Positions 4,568 through 22,666 of a stretch of 64,000 bases of DNA are shown here, in pieces. The translations under genes were made by a program, and so were the position numbers. The DNA comes from Promethearchaeota archaeon (GTDB taxonomy: Archaea > Asgardarchaeota > Hermodarchaeia > Hermodarchaeales > Hermodarchaeaceae): assembly GCA_048939625.1 (NCBI GenBank), contig JBHLPH010000003.1, positions 1 to 64,000 of the forward strand, read 5' to 3'. The notes beneath the pieces are model-generated. The model had not been told where the DNA came from. It ran no database searches and saw only the letters and a list, made by a program, of their open reading frames with translations. Each line of letters begins with the position of its first letter. Positions within the stretch are counted from its first letter, which is position 1.

Positions 4568-5794
4568 CTAGGACCGCTTTTCCATGAACGTTTGGACAGA
4601 ATCCAAAGCAGCGTTGAGAATTGTGGTCGGGGCAAGGAAAACCAATCGGAAATGGTTCGCGCCATATACTGGATCAAATCCCGATCCATGGACGACAAGG
4701 ACTCCCGTCTGATGAAGTAGGTCCATGACAAACGCCTCATCTGTATGCCATCGCGGTTCAAGGTCGATTTTTGGAAAGATGTAGAACGCACCTTCAGGTT
4801 TTGATGTCGAAATGCCTTTGATTTCGTTCAACCGTTTAAATACTAGGTCACGACGTTGGCGGAGACGGGCGACGACATCATTGAGATAACCATCGCCTTC
4901 TCGGAGAGCAGAAGCGGCGGCATATTGAGCAGGAGCGTTTGTGCATATTCGAATACGTGCTTGCTTGAGGATATGTTCTTTCAAATCTTCGAGGTCGTGA
5001 TTGGGGTGATGGAAGTACATATACCCAATCCGCCAACCGGGAACAAGGTAGACTTTTGATAAGCCATTGAAGCCGATGACAGGAACATCCTTGGCTAAAG
5101 CAGCAGTACTTTTGGGTGCTTGATCATAAATGAGCCGATCATAGACTTCATCTGAAATTAAAGGTAAGCCATATTCTCCAGCTAGGTCAATAAATGATTT
5201 GACAGTCTTCTCGGAATATACGGACCCTGTGGGGTTGTTAGGATTGATGAGAACAATGGCTGCCGTCTTGTTTGTAATCTTGGCGCGAATATCATCGATA
5301 TCAGGTTGCCAGCCCTCTTCTTCGATACAGCGATACGTAAGAGCTGTTCCATCAAAGAATCGGACAAACGCCAGATAGGGAGGATACGTGGGTCCAGGTA
5401 CTAATACTTCAGATCCGGGGTGAACCAAAGCCGCCATTACCATTTGGATGCCCTCTGAAATTCCAGCTGTTGCTATCACGTCGGTTGCCGTGAGAGAGAC
5501 CTGGTTGATTCGTTGTTCTTTCTCAACGACAGCTTCACGAAAATCGGAGATTCCAGGTGATGGCGAATAGCCATTATGTCCTTCTTTGGCTGCTTTACAA
5601 AAGGCGTCTATTAGGAATGGAGGGGTTTCGAAATCATAGACAATCGGATCCCCGATATTGAGATAGGTGATTTGCTTTCCAGTAGCTTCCAGCTGTTTTG
5701 CAGTTACAACAACATCGCGGATTGCATATTGGATGGTTTTTGTTCGATTCGTGATAAGATTACGAGAAATCGGTTTCTTGGGCATGCACTTCAC
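4568..5794 (-). CDS. PLP-dependent aminotransferase class I/II (alanine aminotransferase-like)
   Basis: LNIGDP, INPNNPTG, SDEVY and GLSKVYLVPGWRIG (PLP lysine) motifs. Confidence 0.92.
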   Translation of the reverse strand: MKCMPKKPISRNLITNRTKTIQYAIRDVVVTAKQLEATGKQITYLNIGDPIVYDFETPPFLIDAFCKAAKEGHNGYSPSPGISDFREAVVEKEQRINQVSLTATDVIATAGISEGIQMVMAALVHPGSEVLVPGPTYPPYLAFVRFFDGTALTYRCIEEEGWQPDIDDIRAKITNKTAAIVLINPNNPTGSVYSEKTVKSFIDLAGEYGLPLISDEVYDRLIYDQAPKSTAALAKDVPVIGFNGLSKVYLVPGWRIGYMYFHHPNHDLEDLKEHILKQARIRICTNAPAQYAAASALREGDGYLNDVVARLRQRRDLVFKRLNEIKGISTSKPEGAFYIFPKIDLEPRWHTDEAFVMDLLHQTGVLVVHGSGFDPVYGANHFRLVFLAPTTILNAALDSVQTFMEKRS

Positions 5795-20844: not shown

Positions 20845-21744
20845 ATGGCCGAGGAAGTACAGCGTGCACTTGACAATCTTCGTTTCGACCGAATGGTCAA
20901 AGCATTCTGTATCATATCTCCTGAAAACGAAATCTATCAAAGCACACTTGATTCTGACACACAAGCGATGGTCAAACAAACAGTGAGCCTCTACAAGGGA
21001 CAAATCAGCCAACTTACAGTTAATACCGAAGCAGGACTTGTAGTAATCTCAAAAATTGCTGATAACTGGCTCCTAGCAGTCCTTTTTCCTCCCAACCTAT
21101 CACTAGGCATTGCAGTAGTAAAAACAAAAGCAACGCTCCTGGCATTAAGGGAGCTTGATTTAAACATCATTGAAACCATACCAGAAGCACCCGCAAAACC
21201 AGCCCCTGCCACTCAACCTAAACCAGCCACTCCACCCCCTGTTCCTCCCCCTAAACCAGAATCGATGCCCGTTGAAACTCCCACCCCTACACCTCAACCA
21301 AAAGTTGAGCCAAAACCTACCGAAACCACTACTCCTTCCCCCGCCCCTCCTGCACCTGAACCTATCCCTCCCCCTGCAACCGAACCCTCGATTTCAATAC
21401 CAGATTCAATGCCACCTCCAGTTGAACCCCCTCCACCAGAAGCAACAGAAGTAGCAACACCTCCACCACCCCCACCTCCTTCACCAGGTGATGACCAAAT
21501 CGATCTGGGATTTGTGCCCCAAGGTGGGGAAGATTTACTGGCAGCACTAGACACGGGTTCACCTGTAGGGAGTGCACTTTACGATAAGTTTGGTCCATAT
21601 GCGCGGGATGTTCTTTTTCTTGTCGATGGAAAACGTGATGTCAAGACCATCGCTTTCCTATTAGGACTCCCGGAATACGCCATCGTTGAAGTGCTTGAAT
21701 TTGCTATTACTAACCGAATTCTTGCTAGTCCAGTGAGTGCTTAA
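20845..21744 (+). CDS. Roadblock/profilin-like domain + proline-rich linker + winged helix
   Basis: N-terminal alpha/beta domain, ~100-aa Pro-rich tract, C-terminal LVDGKRDVKTIAFLLGL. Confidence 0.65.
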   Translation: MAEEVQRALDNLRFDRMVKAFCIISPENEIYQSTLDSDTQAMVKQTVSLYKGQISQLTVNTEAGLVVISKIADNWLLAVLFPPNLSLGIAVVKTKATLLALRELDLNIIETIPEAPAKPAPATQPKPATPPPVPPPKPESMPVETPTPTPQPKVEPKPTETTTPSPAPPAPEPIPPPATEPSISIPDSMPPPVEPPPPEATEVATPPPPPPPSPGDDQIDLGFVPQGGEDLLAALDTGSPVGSALYDKFGPYARDVLFLVDGKRDVKTIAFLLGLPEYAIVEVLEFAITNRILASPVSA

Positions 21745-21770: not shown

Positions 21771-21789
21771 TTATTTTTTTTAAAAAAAA
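21771..21789. terminator. Bidirectional oligo-T terminator
   Basis: T8 immediately followed by A8, between convergent transcription units. Confidence 0.55.
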
Positions 21790-21927
21790 TAGAGCCGGAA
21801 GGGCAGTCGAGGGAGGAGGGATGTTTTGGAGGGCAAGGACGACTCGGACCTGAGACCTCTTTAGGAAAATTCTGCCTATGAGGATTCTTTTCTAGTTTTA
21901 AAATTGCTTCACTGCCACAACCGGCAC
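21790..21927 (-). ncRNA. Candidate standalone small RNA
   Basis: 5'/3' ends pair (GCCGG/CCGGC, GGCAGU/ACUGCC). TATA-like ATTAAATT lies ~27 nt upstream and a U-run downstream. No credible ORF. Confidence 0.55.
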
Positions 21928-22020
21928 ATGCATTATCCCGTACATGAATTTAATTGTTTCATTTTTTCTCAAACAATTATCGATTATTTTGCGATTATCA
22001 CAATTAAATTTGTGTTAAGC

Positions 22021-22629
22021 TTAAGAGTCATCCTGATATTTCTCGATAATCGTATTCTCTTCTCCACATTGGATGCAAATTAACGGTCGGGAGCGATATG
22101 TGGCACCACATTTAGAACAGGTGGATTCTATGTGCGCGGGCGCCTTTGTGGGAGCGGGTTGCTGACGGTGATGAATGGAGAATGGGAGCGTGATTAACGT
22201 CGCAAGACCCAACATGATACCCAGAGGGAACAGGGTTTGCCAGATTAGGAAATGCAGCAATAGCCCAATTGAGAAACCCGGTAGAAAGAGGTATTTGATA
22301 GTAAAGAGAAACCAGGTTCCGGCAGGGAGCAGAATAGCTACAGTAAGGGTTAAGAGAGTGATGTTTAATTTTCGGATGGTGAGGGCAATAATAATGGTGA
22401 TAAGTAGCCAAAGAATGAGTGAGAACTGGAAGAAGACATTTAGCAAGAGATCGATTGTCGCCATTACCCATGCTAGTTCGTACAGCAAAAGTGGGTCGAC
22501 GAGAGGAAGATAGGTAGTGTAGACAAGAGGTTGCAGTATGTGACCTTGGGTAAGGTAGATGATAATGGCGGCACCAATACTTATGAGAAGCCCTAGGGGG
22601 GCAATCCTTGAACTCCTAAGGCTAGGCAT
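22021..22629 (-). CDS. Multi-pass membrane protein with C-terminal zinc ribbon
   Basis: 4-5 TM segments, CSKCG...CIQCG. ATG at 22629 avoids overlap with the upstream gene. Confidence 0.75.
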   Translation of the reverse strand: MPSLRSSRIAPLGLLISIGAAIIIYLTQGHILQPLVYTTYLPLVDPLLLYELAWVMATIDLLLNVFFQFSLILWLLITIIIALTIRKLNITLLTLTVAILLPAGTWFLFTIKYLFLPGFSIGLLLHFLIWQTLFPLGIMLGLATLITLPFSIHHRQQPAPTKAPAHIESTCSKCGATYRSRPLICIQCGEENTIIEKYQDDS

Positions 22630-22666
22630 AGTAGGAGCCTTTGAGTTTTGGCTTATTAATGTGGTT

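What the first reader, a model, noticed from the sequence alone, without database searches (positions are those of the whole stretch)
21780..21960. Candidate novel archaeal small RNA with closing stem and exposed anti-Shine-Dalgarno tract
Seen on the minus strand: BRE/TATA-like GAAACA-ATTAAATT (TATA at 21954-21947), then ~27 nt later GUGCCGG-UUGU-GGCAGU ... ACUGCC-CUU-CCGGC-UC, then a U8 run. The 5' and 3' ends (21925-21911 and 21807-21794) form two helices around a pyrimidine-rich internal loop. The enclosed ~100 nt end in CCCUCC-AAAACAU-CCCUCCUCCCUC, i.e. repeated CCUCC complementary to GGAGG ribosome-binding sites. It has its own promoter and terminator, no ORF, and does not look like tRNA, 5S, SRP, RNase P or a C/D guide. 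Inference: an independently transcribed RNA that may block RBSs in trans, mimic the 16S 3' end, or bind a protein through its closing stem.
Basis: partly seen in the sequence, partly recalled or inferred. Interest (0 to 1): 0.75.

Follow-up and report, generated by a model that had tools for sequence, protein, structure and literature searches.

The report
Conserved pyrimidine-box small RNA of Asgard archaea
This is a real, previously undescribed ~140-nt non-coding RNA gene of Hermodarchaeia-like Asgard archaea, the local version of a small-RNA family found at the same genomic spot in at least seven other Asgard families, and it displays exposed CCUCC-type tracts that could mask ribosome-binding sites.

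Summary
On the minus strand, about 21926 to 21782, lies a stand-alone RNA gene with a TATA box 28 nt upstream, a two-part closing stem, an unpaired CU-rich 3' half and a U8 terminator.

- **Not a known RNA.** It matches no Rfam family and is not a tRNA, 5S, SRP RNA, RNase P RNA, C/D, H/ACA or Y RNA.
- **Conservation.** It is single-copy and syntenic in all 19 genomes of its class and in 7 metagenome contigs. It was not detected in 132 other Asgard genomes.
- **Structure.** Pairing holds in 93% of cells against 34-51% in slid controls, and five pairs show double changes.
- **New here.** It shares the core CGCCCUCC(UCCC) and its position, just downstream of a membrane zinc-ribbon gene beside GluRS, with a kink-turn-closed small-RNA family. 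That family occurs in Atabeyarchaeia, Freyarchaeia/Jordarchaeia and five more families. The Hermod version has lost the kink-turn.
- **A second RNA.** Another CU-rich small RNA with the same core lies on another contig.
- **Function is inferred only.** The genome uses GGAGGUGA Shine-Dalgarno sites, so RBS masking is plausible. No conserved target and no long complementary partner were found, and no RNA-seq run holds the locus.

First readers of this scan noted the same RNA in other genomes.

The parts
21782..21926 (-). The small RNA gene (RNA-1), about 135-145 nt. The predicted 5' end is at 21926 +/- 2. The 3' end lies within the U-run 21789-21782.
   Evidence: Covariance-model match at 21783-21926. 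It is conserved in 19/19 genomes of the class. There is no Rfam match.
21947..21960 (-). BRE/TATA promoter (GAAACA + ATTAAATT). The first T/A of the TATA box lies 28 nt before the RNA 5' end.
   Evidence: It aligns with AAAGACTTATAAT in genus 1 and AAAGATTTATATC in genus 2 at the same distance.
21964..21972 (-). Conserved upstream box TTGAGAAAA (TTGCGAAAA in genus 2), about 45-52 nt before the start. It is a candidate regulator site.
   Evidence: Conserved in both genera although the surrounding spacer varies. Its function was not tested.
21932..21937 (-). A/T-rich proximal promoter element (GATAAT; ATTATT in relatives), about 6-12 nt before the start.
   Evidence: Conserved position in the alignment of upstream regions.
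21921..21925 (-). Helix 1, 5' strand GCCGG. It pairs with 21798-21794.
   Evidence: 97% of cells are paired and the helix is nearly invariant.
21794..21798 (-). Helix 1, 3' strand CCGGC.
21911..21918 (-). Helix 2, 5' strand G(U)GGCAGU. It pairs with 21807-21801. A U-rich internal loop (UU / UU) separates it from helix 1.
   Evidence: 92% of cells are paired. There are G-C to A-U and C-G to U-A double changes.
21801..21807 (-). Helix 2, 3' strand ACUGCCC.
21896..21905 (-). Invariant U4 tract in an A/U-rich context (AAUUUUAAAA), inside an otherwise variable 5' segment.
   Evidence: The UUUU and A columns are invariant. U-runs also precede the CU boxes in the kink-turn relatives. Sm-like protein binding is only an inference.
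21869..21883 (-). Class-specific conserved block CCUCAUAGGCAGAAU. AUAGGCAGAAUCC is identical in both genera; this genome reads ..GAAUUUUCC.
21856..21865 (-). Internal hairpin. It is CCUCC-CAA-GGAGG in most relatives and UCCC/GGGA in genus 2, and is weakened to CCU-AAAG-AGG in this genome.
   Evidence: Three pairs show changes on both sides. The hairpin is lost in one species.
21828..21847 (-). Conserved block CCGAGUCGUCCUUGCCCUCC, which contains CU box 1. The consensus is (U)CCUCGCCCUCC. This is the core shared with RNA-2 and with the kink-turn family.
21809..21820 (-). CU box 2, CCCUCCUCCCUC. It contains CCUCCU and CCUCCUCCC, and its unpaired probability is above 0.9.
   Evidence: The motif identity with the bacterial cuckoo/CcsR loop motif is from PMC4615179.
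21782..21789 (-). U8 terminator. It is part of the palindromic T8A8 shared with the convergent gene.
   Evidence: A T6-T9 run follows the 3' stem in all homologues.
22021..22632 (-). Upstream neighbour on the same strand: a membrane protein with a C-terminal zinc ribbon (the 'orf234' family). It is the conserved positional partner of the RNA gene.
   Evidence: Its homologues directly precede the RNA in families f1, f7, f8, f12, f14 and f20. It has no Pfam match. The Atlas gives hypothetical zinc-ribbon proteins of Asgard.

Best explanation
**Shown.**
- Window 21926-21782 (minus strand) is a stand-alone gene for a non-coding RNA of about 140 nt in a Hermodarchaeia-like Asgard archaeon.
- Transcription starts about 28 nt after a conserved TATA box and ends in an oligo-U run.
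- The 5' and 3' ends form a two-part closing stem. The 3' half is an unpaired C/U-rich tract with two boxes, CCU(C/U)GCCCUCC and CCCUCCUCCCUC.

**Shown by comparison.**
- It occupies the same place as a kink-turn-closed CU-box small RNA of Atabeyarchaeia, Freyarchaeia/Jordarchaeia and five other Asgard families. That place is directly downstream of a membrane zinc-ribbon gene, in the neighbourhood GGR > orf160 > orf234 > RNA | < GluRS.
- It shares the core CGCCCUCC(UCCC) with that family.
- I therefore read it as that family's Hermodarchaeial orthologue, in which the kink-turn was replaced by a U/U internal loop and a 45-nt class-specific module was added.

**Inferred mechanism.** It is a trans-acting riboregulator. 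Its exposed CCUCC-type boxes pair through short seeds with purine-rich GGAGG ribosome-binding sites and occlude them. This is the way bacterial CCUCCUCCC ('cuckoo'/CcsR) sRNAs and Methanosarcina sRNA41/sRNA154 are thought to act. The invariant U4 tract and the 3' U-tail are possible Sm-like protein sites.
For: **Gene status.**
- Promoter, body and terminator are conserved while the flanks diverge.
- It is present in 19/19 class genomes and 7 metagenome contigs.
- Structure counts are 93% paired against 34-51% in controls, with 5 pairs changed on both sides.
- Blocks of 13 and 14 nt are identical between two genera whose neighbouring orf234 proteins are only about 34% identical.
- It is non-coding, because spacer indels are not multiples of three.

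**Family link.**
- The 12-mer TCCTCGCCCTCC lies inside promoter-bearing, stem-closed sRNAs of other families.
- Model R3 finds these in f12 3/3, f14 3/4, f20 2/3, f7 5/5 (four convincing on inspection), f8 1/1 and f18 4/6.
- Their helices covary strongly: 94% paired, 8 of 9 pairs with double changes.
- BLASTP shows the same orf160/orf234/GGR/GluRS neighbours.
- f12 and f18 are named.

**Mechanism.**
- The CU tract is unpaired with p > 0.9.
- GGAGG and GGTGA peak at -15..-9 before start codons in this genome.
- A second sRNA with the same core is conserved in 17/19 genomes.
- Literature analogies are PMC4615179 and PMC5867862.
Against: **No evidence of expression.** No RNA run holds the locus.

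**No conserved target.**
- The exact complement of the core occurs nowhere else near a start codon.
- In complete Atabey and Frey genomes the 12-nt complement, wobble allowed, occurs only antisense to the sRNA genes themselves.
- A scan of translation-initiation regions gave no outlier. The real seed hardly beat its reversed control, -12.1 against -11.7 kcal/mol.
- The best 12-nt match, at a Kelch gene, is not kept in the one relative that has the gene.

**The conservation pattern fits SD pairing poorly.** An 11-16-nt core that is invariant across classes is more than short SD pairing needs, and it would fit a protein-binding site as well.

**The orthology has gaps.** Models R2 and R3 do not cross-detect, and the kink-turn is absent here.
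Confidence: 0.45

Rival explanations
1. The RNA is a protein-binding RNA: a sponge, scaffold or decoy. The invariant CU boxes and the class-specific blocks are binding sites for a conserved protein. Candidates are a KH-type or other C-rich-RNA binder, a factor that recognises the CCUCCU 3' tail of 16S rRNA, or the cytoplasmic zinc ribbon of the neighbouring membrane protein. In the relatives, L7Ae would bind the kink-turn as well.
For: - The core CGCCCUCCUCCC is invariant across at least 8 families although no fully complementary RNA exists in complete genomes.
- The relatives carry a canonical kink-turn, that is a protein site.
- The RNA is strictly linked to the orf234 zinc-ribbon gene.
- The blocks AUAGGCAGAAUCC and CCCGAGUCGUCCUC are invariant without supporting pairing.
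Against: - No candidate protein was identified or tested.
- orf234 homologues also occur in families f6 and f9, where no such RNA follows them.
- The Hermod RNA lacks the kink-turn.
Confidence: 0.25
2. The RNA is a cis-linked element of the upstream orf234 gene. It would be a 3'-UTR-derived or co-transcribed RNA that controls or marks that membrane-protein mRNA, rather than a free trans-acting RNA.
For: - It always lies 95-230 nt downstream of the orf234-family gene on the same strand.
- No strong T-run separates the orf234 stop from the RNA in this window.
Against: - A TATA box sits at canonical distance from the first base of the closing stem in every lineage.
- The spacer between stop codon and promoter is not conserved.
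- Paralogous copies (RNA-2, and second R3 hits in G053, G073 and G069) lie elsewhere, without orf234.
Confidence: 0.1
3. The RNA acts in ribosome biogenesis or function. It would pair with, or mimic, part of the rRNA (for example the 16S 3' tail CCUCCU) during maturation or initiation.
For: - The boxes contain CCUCCU, the usual 16S 3' terminus (established knowledge; sequence).
- The kink-turn relatives would bind L7Ae, a ribosomal and snoRNP protein.
Against: - No 11-12-nt complement exists anywhere in two complete genomes, rRNA included.
- The 16S gene is not assembled in this MAG, so the tail could not be read.
- There are no C/D or H/ACA boxes.
Confidence: 0.08
4. The RNA is a Y-RNA-like or vault-like RNP RNA. 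The resemblance is a terminal stem with an internal loop, a pyrimidine-rich loop and an oligo-U tail.
For: Overall architecture only.
Against: - No TROVE/Ro60 gene was found in any of the 19 class genomes.
- The conserved Ro-binding bulged helix motif is absent.
- Rfam gives no match.
Confidence: 0.02

Closest known systems
Kink-turn-closed CU-box small RNAs of other Asgard families (Atabeyarchaeia, Freyarchaeia/Jordarchaeia and GTDB families f7, f8, f14, f20). They are unnamed and absent from Rfam.
   Same: - Same genomic slot, after the orf234-family zinc-ribbon membrane gene and next to orf160, GGR and GluRS.
- A TATA box 24-30 nt upstream.
- A two-part closing stem.
- An A/U-rich 5' part with a U-run.
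- A CU-rich 3' part with the core CGCCCUCCUCCC.
- A T-rich end.
   Different: - The relatives have tandem G-A/A-G pairs with a 3-nt bulge between the two helices (..GA-GCCAG / CUGGC-GAU-GA..). RNA-1 has UU/UU there, or a 3-nt bulge without GA in genus 2.
- RNA-1 carries an extra conserved module (AUAGGCAGAAUCC, a hairpin, CCCGAGUCGU).
- In genus 1 the core is split by AAAACAU.
- The covariance models do not cross-detect.
Bacterial 'cuckoo' / CcsR (RSs0680, alpha-r14) sRNAs with the CCUCCUCCC anti-SD loop motif (PMC4615179)
   Same: - The same nonamer CCUCCUCCC is present and exposed.
- There are several CU motifs per RNA and more than one copy per genome.
- The proposed action is on ribosome-binding sites.
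   Different: - The cuckoo RNAs are alphaproteobacterial. Their motif sits in the loops of 2-4 adjacent hairpins, and they depend on Hfq.
- Here one long single-stranded tract is enclosed by a terminal stem, in archaea.
- There is no Rfam match, so this is an analogy, not homology.
Methanosarcina mazei sRNA41 and sRNA154, archaeal intergenic sRNAs that mask ribosome-binding sites (PMC5867862)
   Same: Both are archaeal, intergenic and have their own promoter. Anti-RBS sequences are proposed to block translation initiation.
   Different: - There is no sequence or structural similarity.
- The Methanosarcina targets are experimentally supported, and here none is known.
- The Asgard RNAs keep a fixed genomic neighbourhood across classes.
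Box C/D sRNAs, the classic L7Ae kink-turn RNAs
   Same: In the kink-turn relatives the 3' strand reads (G/A)AUGA and the 5' strand NNGA. These form a C/D-like kink-turn.
   Different: - RNA-1 has no kink-turn.
- None of these RNAs has the C-D'-C'-D box layout or guide spacing.
- The box order is reversed, with the D-like box 5' and the C-like box 3'.

Membership tests
tRNA / 5S rRNA / SRP RNA / RNase P RNA (Rfam, ARAGORN) | A match to the family covariance model, or a cloverleaf | tested here: not met
   - No Rfam match was found at gathering score or at E <= 10 in the region.
- ARAGORN found nothing.
- RNase P RNA and 5S rRNA lie elsewhere in this genome.
- SRP RNA lies elsewhere in 12 of 14 genus genomes.
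Box C/D sRNA | A C box (RUGAUGA) and a D box (CUGA) at the termini, forming a kink-turn | tested here: not met
   There is no UGAUGA or CUGA box and no tandem G-A pairs in RNA-1.
H/ACA sRNA | A conserved ACA 3' of a pocket-bearing hairpin with a K-turn or K-loop | tested here: not met
   The only ACA (in AAAACAU) is replaced by AUA, AAU or UCU in relatives.
Y RNA | A Ro60 (TROVE) partner encoded in the genome | tested here: not met
   PF05731 was found in 0 of 19 class genomes, while the controls were detected.
Cuckoo / CcsR sRNAs | The CCUCCUCCC motif | tested here: met
   CCCUCCUCCCUC lies at 21820-21809. The motif definition is from PMC4615179.
Cuckoo / CcsR sRNAs | The motif is displayed in the loops of 2-4 adjacent hairpins, with homology to the alphaproteobacterial family | tested here: not met
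   The tract is a long unpaired stretch inside one terminal stem. There is no Rfam match.
Archaeal anti-RBS sRNAs (sRNA41 / sRNA154 type; a functional class) | An intergenic gene with its own promoter and an exposed anti-SD sequence | tested here: met
   SD use in this genome is shown.
Archaeal anti-RBS sRNAs (sRNA41 / sRNA154 type; a functional class) | Pairing with the ribosome-binding sites of defined mRNAs | tested here: inconclusive
   No outlier or conserved target was found.
Asgard CU-box sRNA family (defined here, model R3) | Position directly downstream of the orf234-family zinc-ribbon membrane gene, with orf160, GGR and GluRS nearby | tested here: met
   BLASTP of the neighbours and synteny within the class.
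Asgard CU-box sRNA family (defined here, model R3) | The CU-box core CGCCCUCCUCCC in an unpaired 3' half, a TATA box at -24..-30, and a bipartite closing stem | tested here: met
   The core is intact in genus 2. In genus 1 it is split as CGCCCUCC..CCCUCCUCCC.
Asgard CU-box sRNA family (defined here, model R3) | A kink-turn (3-nt bulge plus tandem G-A/A-G) between the two closing helices, and detection by model R3 | tested here: not met
   The loop is UU/UU and contains no GA. R3 found 0 of 18 Hermod genomes. I therefore file RNA-1 as a divergent orthologue, not as a canonical member.

The most novel reading that the evidence does not exclude
An ancient small-RNA system may be conserved across a large part of the Asgard archaea. 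It would consist of an sRNA, bound by L7Ae through a kink-turn in most lineages, that displays copies of the 16S rRNA 3'-tail sequence (CCUCCU boxes). It would be genetically tied to a membrane-anchored zinc-ribbon protein. The system could act as a global regulator of Shine-Dalgarno-dependent initiation, or as a decoy for a factor that reads the 16S tail, possibly at the membrane. In this reading Hermodarchaeia rebuilt the RNA without the kink-turn and duplicated it (RNA-2).
Probability: 0.2. Interest if true: 0.85.

Novelty: new variant of a known kind. Interest (0 to 1): 0.7.

Why it matters
**A gap in what is known.** In the full-text searches I ran, nothing on regulatory RNAs of Asgard archaea turned up.

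**What this adds.** This is a well-supported, unannotated RNA gene family with clear anatomy.
- It has a defined promoter and terminator.
- It covaries strongly in its kink-turn members.
- Its sequence core is invariant across classes.
- It keeps a fixed genomic neighbour.

**Uses.**
- It gives annotators a new model to add.
- It gives experimenters a concrete RNA and RNP to look for in the Atabeyarchaeia and Freyarchaeia complete genomes and in their environmental transcriptomes.
- It makes testable how translation initiation is regulated in the archaeal lineage closest to eukaryotes.
- The loss of the kink-turn in one class, with the functional core kept, is a natural experiment on which parts of the RNA matter.

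Tried and rejected
- **Known RNA families.** Rfam at gathering score and at E <= 10 gave nothing relevant, on the window and on the relatives. ARAGORN found no tRNA.
- **Missing SRP RNA.** I considered this because RF01857 is not found in this MAG. I rejected it because relatives carry SRP RNA elsewhere, on other contigs or far away on the same contig.
- **Y RNA.** No TROVE gene was found in any of 19 genomes.
- **Small ORF on either strand.** The plus-strand ATG after GGAGGAGGG is lost in relatives. The minus-strand frames are broken by spacer indels that are not multiples of three.
- **Expression.** No RNA holder was listed among public runs.
- **Exact-complement targets.**
  - GGRGGGCGRGG and 1-mismatch variants gave only sites inside coding sequence or antisense.
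  - The C1:14580 match lies antisense inside a NuoL-like ORF.
  - In other genomes the hits were mostly the sRNA genes' own antisense, and exclusively so in G045, G039 and G053.
- **Whole-genome duplex scan.** Its main yield was RNA-2.
- **Scan of translation-initiation regions.** It gave no outlier. The Kelch-gene candidate is not conserved.
- **Marginal R2 hits in family f13.** These are unrelated sequence.
- **15-mer scan of all prokaryote genomes.** It returned only chance hits in high-GC bacteria.
- **Whole-genome GGAGGTGA counts across Asgard.** They are no higher than the reversed control and so say nothing about SD use.
Full report
**What is in the window**

Read on the minus strand, the region holds these elements in order:
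- a BRE/TATA-like GAAACA-ATTAAATT at 21960-21947;
- 20 nt later, GUGCCGG-UUGU-GGCAGU at 21927-21911;
- about 100 nt of interior sequence;
- ACUGCC-CUU-CCGGC at 21807-21794;
- UCUA and a U8 run at 21789-21782.

The interior ends in CCUUGCCCUCC-AAAACAU-CCCUCCUCCCUC (21838-21809).

The flanking genes are convergent. A 299-aa ORF ends at 21744 on the plus strand. A 234-aa ORF ends at 22021 on the minus strand, upstream of the RNA. No gene follows the element on its own strand.

The single-sequence fold contains the closing stem but is not exceptional, with z = -1.38. The case therefore rests on comparison.

**Organism**

GluRS next door is 72-77% identical to proteins of MAGs labelled Hermodarchaeota or Promethearchaeota. 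The MAG has 2.31 Mb in 83 contigs and is 88% complete.

**It is a conserved gene**

- BLASTN finds one copy in each of the 14 other genomes of the genus, at 74-89% identity.
- In the alignment, conservation starts at an upstream box, runs through TATA box, RNA body and T-run, and stops there.
- A covariance model (R1) finds full-length matches in the four genomes of the sister genus.
- The rebuilt model R2 finds it in 19 of 19 genomes of the class (one copy is cut by a contig end) and in none of 132 other Asgard genomes sampled.
- A pattern scan of metagenome contigs added seven more copies.
- Gene order GluRS > orf299 > | < RNA < orf234 < orf160 < GGR is kept in both genera.
- Between the genera the neighbouring orf234 protein is only about 34% identical, yet the RNA keeps AUAGGCAGAAUCC and CCCGAGUCGUCCUC without a change.

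**Promoter and terminator**

- The TATA box (TTATAAT or TTTATAT) begins 28-29 nt before the first base of the closing stem in every species.
- It is preceded by AAAGA(C/T).
- Further upstream, at about -50, lies a conserved TTG(A/C)GAAAA box.
- An A/T-rich element sits at about -10.
- A run of T6-T9 follows the 3' stem everywhere.

This is the layout of an independent archaeal transcription unit. That reading rests on established knowledge of archaeal promoters. The transcript itself was not observed, because no RNA run holds the locus.

**Structure**

- All 14 genus homologues put helix 1 (GCCGG/CCGGC) and helix 2 (GGGCAG(Y)/(R)CUGCCC) in their MFE fold, and all leave the 3' CU tract open.
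- On the model-based alignment of 25 sequences (22 distinct), 93.2% of cells are paired against 34-51% when partners are slid.
- Five pairs change on both sides. In helix 2 these are G-C to A-U and C-G to U-A. Three more lie in the internal hairpin CCUCC-CAA-GGAGG.
- The diversity is shallow, so helix 1 is simply invariant.
- The hairpin CGAG-UCGUC-CUCG that the fold suggests is not supported. Its 5' strand varies without compensation.
- The CU tract has an unpaired probability above 0.9.

**It is non-coding**

There is no start codon after the internal GGAGG. The CCAA...AUC spacer differs among species by +1, +2, +3 and -2 nt. A short plus-strand ORF after GGAGGAGGG loses its ATG in relatives.

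**Not a known RNA**

- Rfam gives nothing at gathering score, and only noise at E <= 10.
- ARAGORN finds nothing.
- RNase P RNA and 5S rRNA are elsewhere in this genome.
- SRP RNA is missing from this MAG but is found elsewhere in 12 of 14 relatives.
- C/D and H/ACA boxes are absent or not conserved.
- I considered a Y-RNA-like reading because of the architecture. It fails because no TROVE gene exists in any of the 19 genomes.

**A second CU-rich RNA**

A genome-wide duplex scan with the CU tract found one outlier, on contig C40.
- It proved to be the antisense of another small-RNA gene, RNA-2.
- RNA-2 has a TTTAAATA box 30 nt before a 14-bp closing stem (GAAGGAAGCGAAGG/CCUUCGCUUCCUUC).
- Its interior reads ..AUCGUUCCUCGCCCUCCCCUCGCUCCCCCUCCC.., and it has a T-rich end.
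- It is conserved in 17 of 19 class genomes.
- It shares UCGU(U)CCUCGCCCUCC with RNA-1.

**The wider family**

I searched the 12-mer TCCTCGCCCTCC over 400 Asgard genomes.
- It gave two hits per Hermod genome.
- It gave a background-like rate elsewhere.
- In several other families, however, the hit lay inside a promoter-bearing, stem-closed, CU-rich RNA.

The closing stem of these RNAs reads 5' [helix]-GA-GCCAG ... CUGGC-(G/A)AU-GA-[helix] 3'. That is a 3-nt bulge followed by tandem G-A/A-G pairs, the textbook kink-turn. A model built from six of them (R3) gave these results:

| Family | Genomes with a match | Comment |
|---|---|---|
| f12 | 3/3 | |
| f14 | 3/4 | |
| f20 | 2/3 | |
| f7 | 5/5 | four convincing on inspection |
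| f8 | 1/1 | |
| f18 | 4/6 | |
| f5 | 1/1 | |
| Hermodarchaeia (f1) | 0/18 | |
| f6 | 0/26 | |
| f9 | 0/25 | |

The hits in f4 and f13 look like coding sequence. The two helices of the family covary strongly: 94% paired, 8 of 9 pairs with double changes, and no shuffle reaches the observed values. Family f12 contains the Atabeyarchaeia-1 chromosome CP147779.1, and f18 contains the Freyarchaeia-1 chromosome CP147778.1. Rfam does not know these RNAs.

**Orthology by position**

BLASTP of the neighbours shows a shared slot.
- In f7, f8, f12, f14 and f20 the kink-turn RNA lies directly downstream of, and on the same strand as, a homologue of orf234. This is a membrane protein ending in the zinc ribbon CPxCGxxYxSxPxxCxxCG.
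- An orf160 homologue and/or GGR lies upstream.
- In f12 and f14, GluRS is convergent on the other side.

This is the slot of RNA-1. The cores also agree. They read (U/A)CGCCCUCCUCCC(C) in all kink-turn lineages, UCGCCCUCCUCCCUCC in Hermod genus 2, and UCGCCCUCC-AAAACAU-CCCUCCUCCCUC in genus 1.

I therefore read RNA-1 as the Hermodarchaeial orthologue. It has lost the kink-turn: UU/UU in genus 1, and a 3-nt bulge without GA in genus 2. It has gained a class-specific module.

orf234 homologues occur in 96 of 151 Asgard genomes. Downstream of them I saw no such RNA in the families sampled (f6, f9, f26 and f2 among them).

**Function**

The genome uses Shine-Dalgarno sites. GGAGG peaks at -15..-12 and GGTG(A) at -12..-9 before the first ATG of long ORFs. 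Exposed CCUCC boxes therefore have potential partners. The motif CCUCCUCCC is the one that defines the bacterial cuckoo/CcsR anti-SD sRNAs (PMC4615179). RBS masking by intergenic sRNAs is documented in Methanosarcina (PMC5867862).

The tests I could run do not single out a target.
- No full complement of the core occurs near any start codon.
- In two complete genomes the 12-nt complement, wobble allowed, exists only antisense to the sRNA genes.
- The initiation-region scan has no outlier, and the real seed barely beats its reversed control.
- The best 12-nt match, the leader of a Kelch-repeat gene, is not kept in the only relative with that gene.

A core that is invariant over 12-16 nt across classes, without a long complementary partner, fits a protein-binding site at least as well as short-seed pairing. 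I put RBS masking at about 0.45 and a protein-binding role at about 0.25. The rest goes to cis-linkage with orf234 or a ribosome-related role.

**Novelty**

I found no description in Rfam or in the papers searched. First readers of this scan flagged the same RNA in other Hermod genomes and one kink-turn relative. Those notes were unchecked, and they agree with what I found.

Noticed in passing
G000 contig C40, about 4645-4774, minus strand (L140:1446-1575); outside the window: A second CU-rich small-RNA gene (RNA-2). It has TTTAAATA at -30, a 14-bp closing stem and the interior ..UCGUUCCUCGCCCUCCCCUCGCUCCCCCUCCC... It is conserved in 17 of 19 class genomes. It lies about 85 nt upstream of a small Rab-like GTPase gene on the same strand. 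The contig ends inside its promoter region.
   Followed up: partly
G000 C9:125349-125378 (-) and C58:61989-62020 (-); outside the window: Two further CU-rich stretches are enclosed by terminal stems. They share the ends GAUAGGAUG...CAUCC(C). Neither has a recognisable TATA box. The C58 copy is followed by a hairpin and T7 runs. They may form another RNA family.
   Followed up: no
window 22021-22632 (-): The orf234 family consists of about four transmembrane helices plus a C-terminal zinc ribbon, CPxCGxxYxSxPxxCxxCG. It has no Pfam match. Homologues occur in 96 of 151 Asgard genomes sampled. It is the constant upstream neighbour of the sRNA.
   Followed up: partly
window 20845-21744 (+): The 299-aa protein has a very conserved 112-aa N-terminal domain (85-96% identity in the genus) and an 85-aa C-terminal domain. 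These are joined by a proline-rich, low-complexity linker of about 100 aa. It has no Pfam match.
   Followed up: no
window 21989-22000 and 21964-21972 (-): Conserved boxes lie upstream of the sRNA promoter: TGATAATCGCAA and TTGAGAAAA. In genus 2 they form a direct repeat, TTAAGAAAAACCCAA / TTGCGAAAACCAAAG, spaced by about 32 nt. They are possible regulator binding sites.
   Followed up: no
whole genome G000: No archaeal SRP RNA (RF01857) and no 16S 3' end were found in this MAG. Relatives do have SRP RNA, so these are probably assembly gaps.
   Followed up: partly
window 1-64000: ARAGORN reports no tRNA in the whole 64-kb window. If that note is right, standard tRNA scans miss multi-intron tRNAs here.
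   Followed up: no
G053 C1:3246283-3246399, G073 C3:62357-62457, G069 C49:4882-4981: Model R3 gives second, weaker hits in genomes that already have the syntenic kink-turn sRNA. The kink-turn family may therefore also have paralogues, as Hermodarchaeia have RNA-2.
   Followed up: no
G024 (family f7), whole genome: GGGRGGRGGGYG-type purine motifs occur 20 times against 8 for the reversed control. This is many more than in the other four genomes tested.
   Followed up: no
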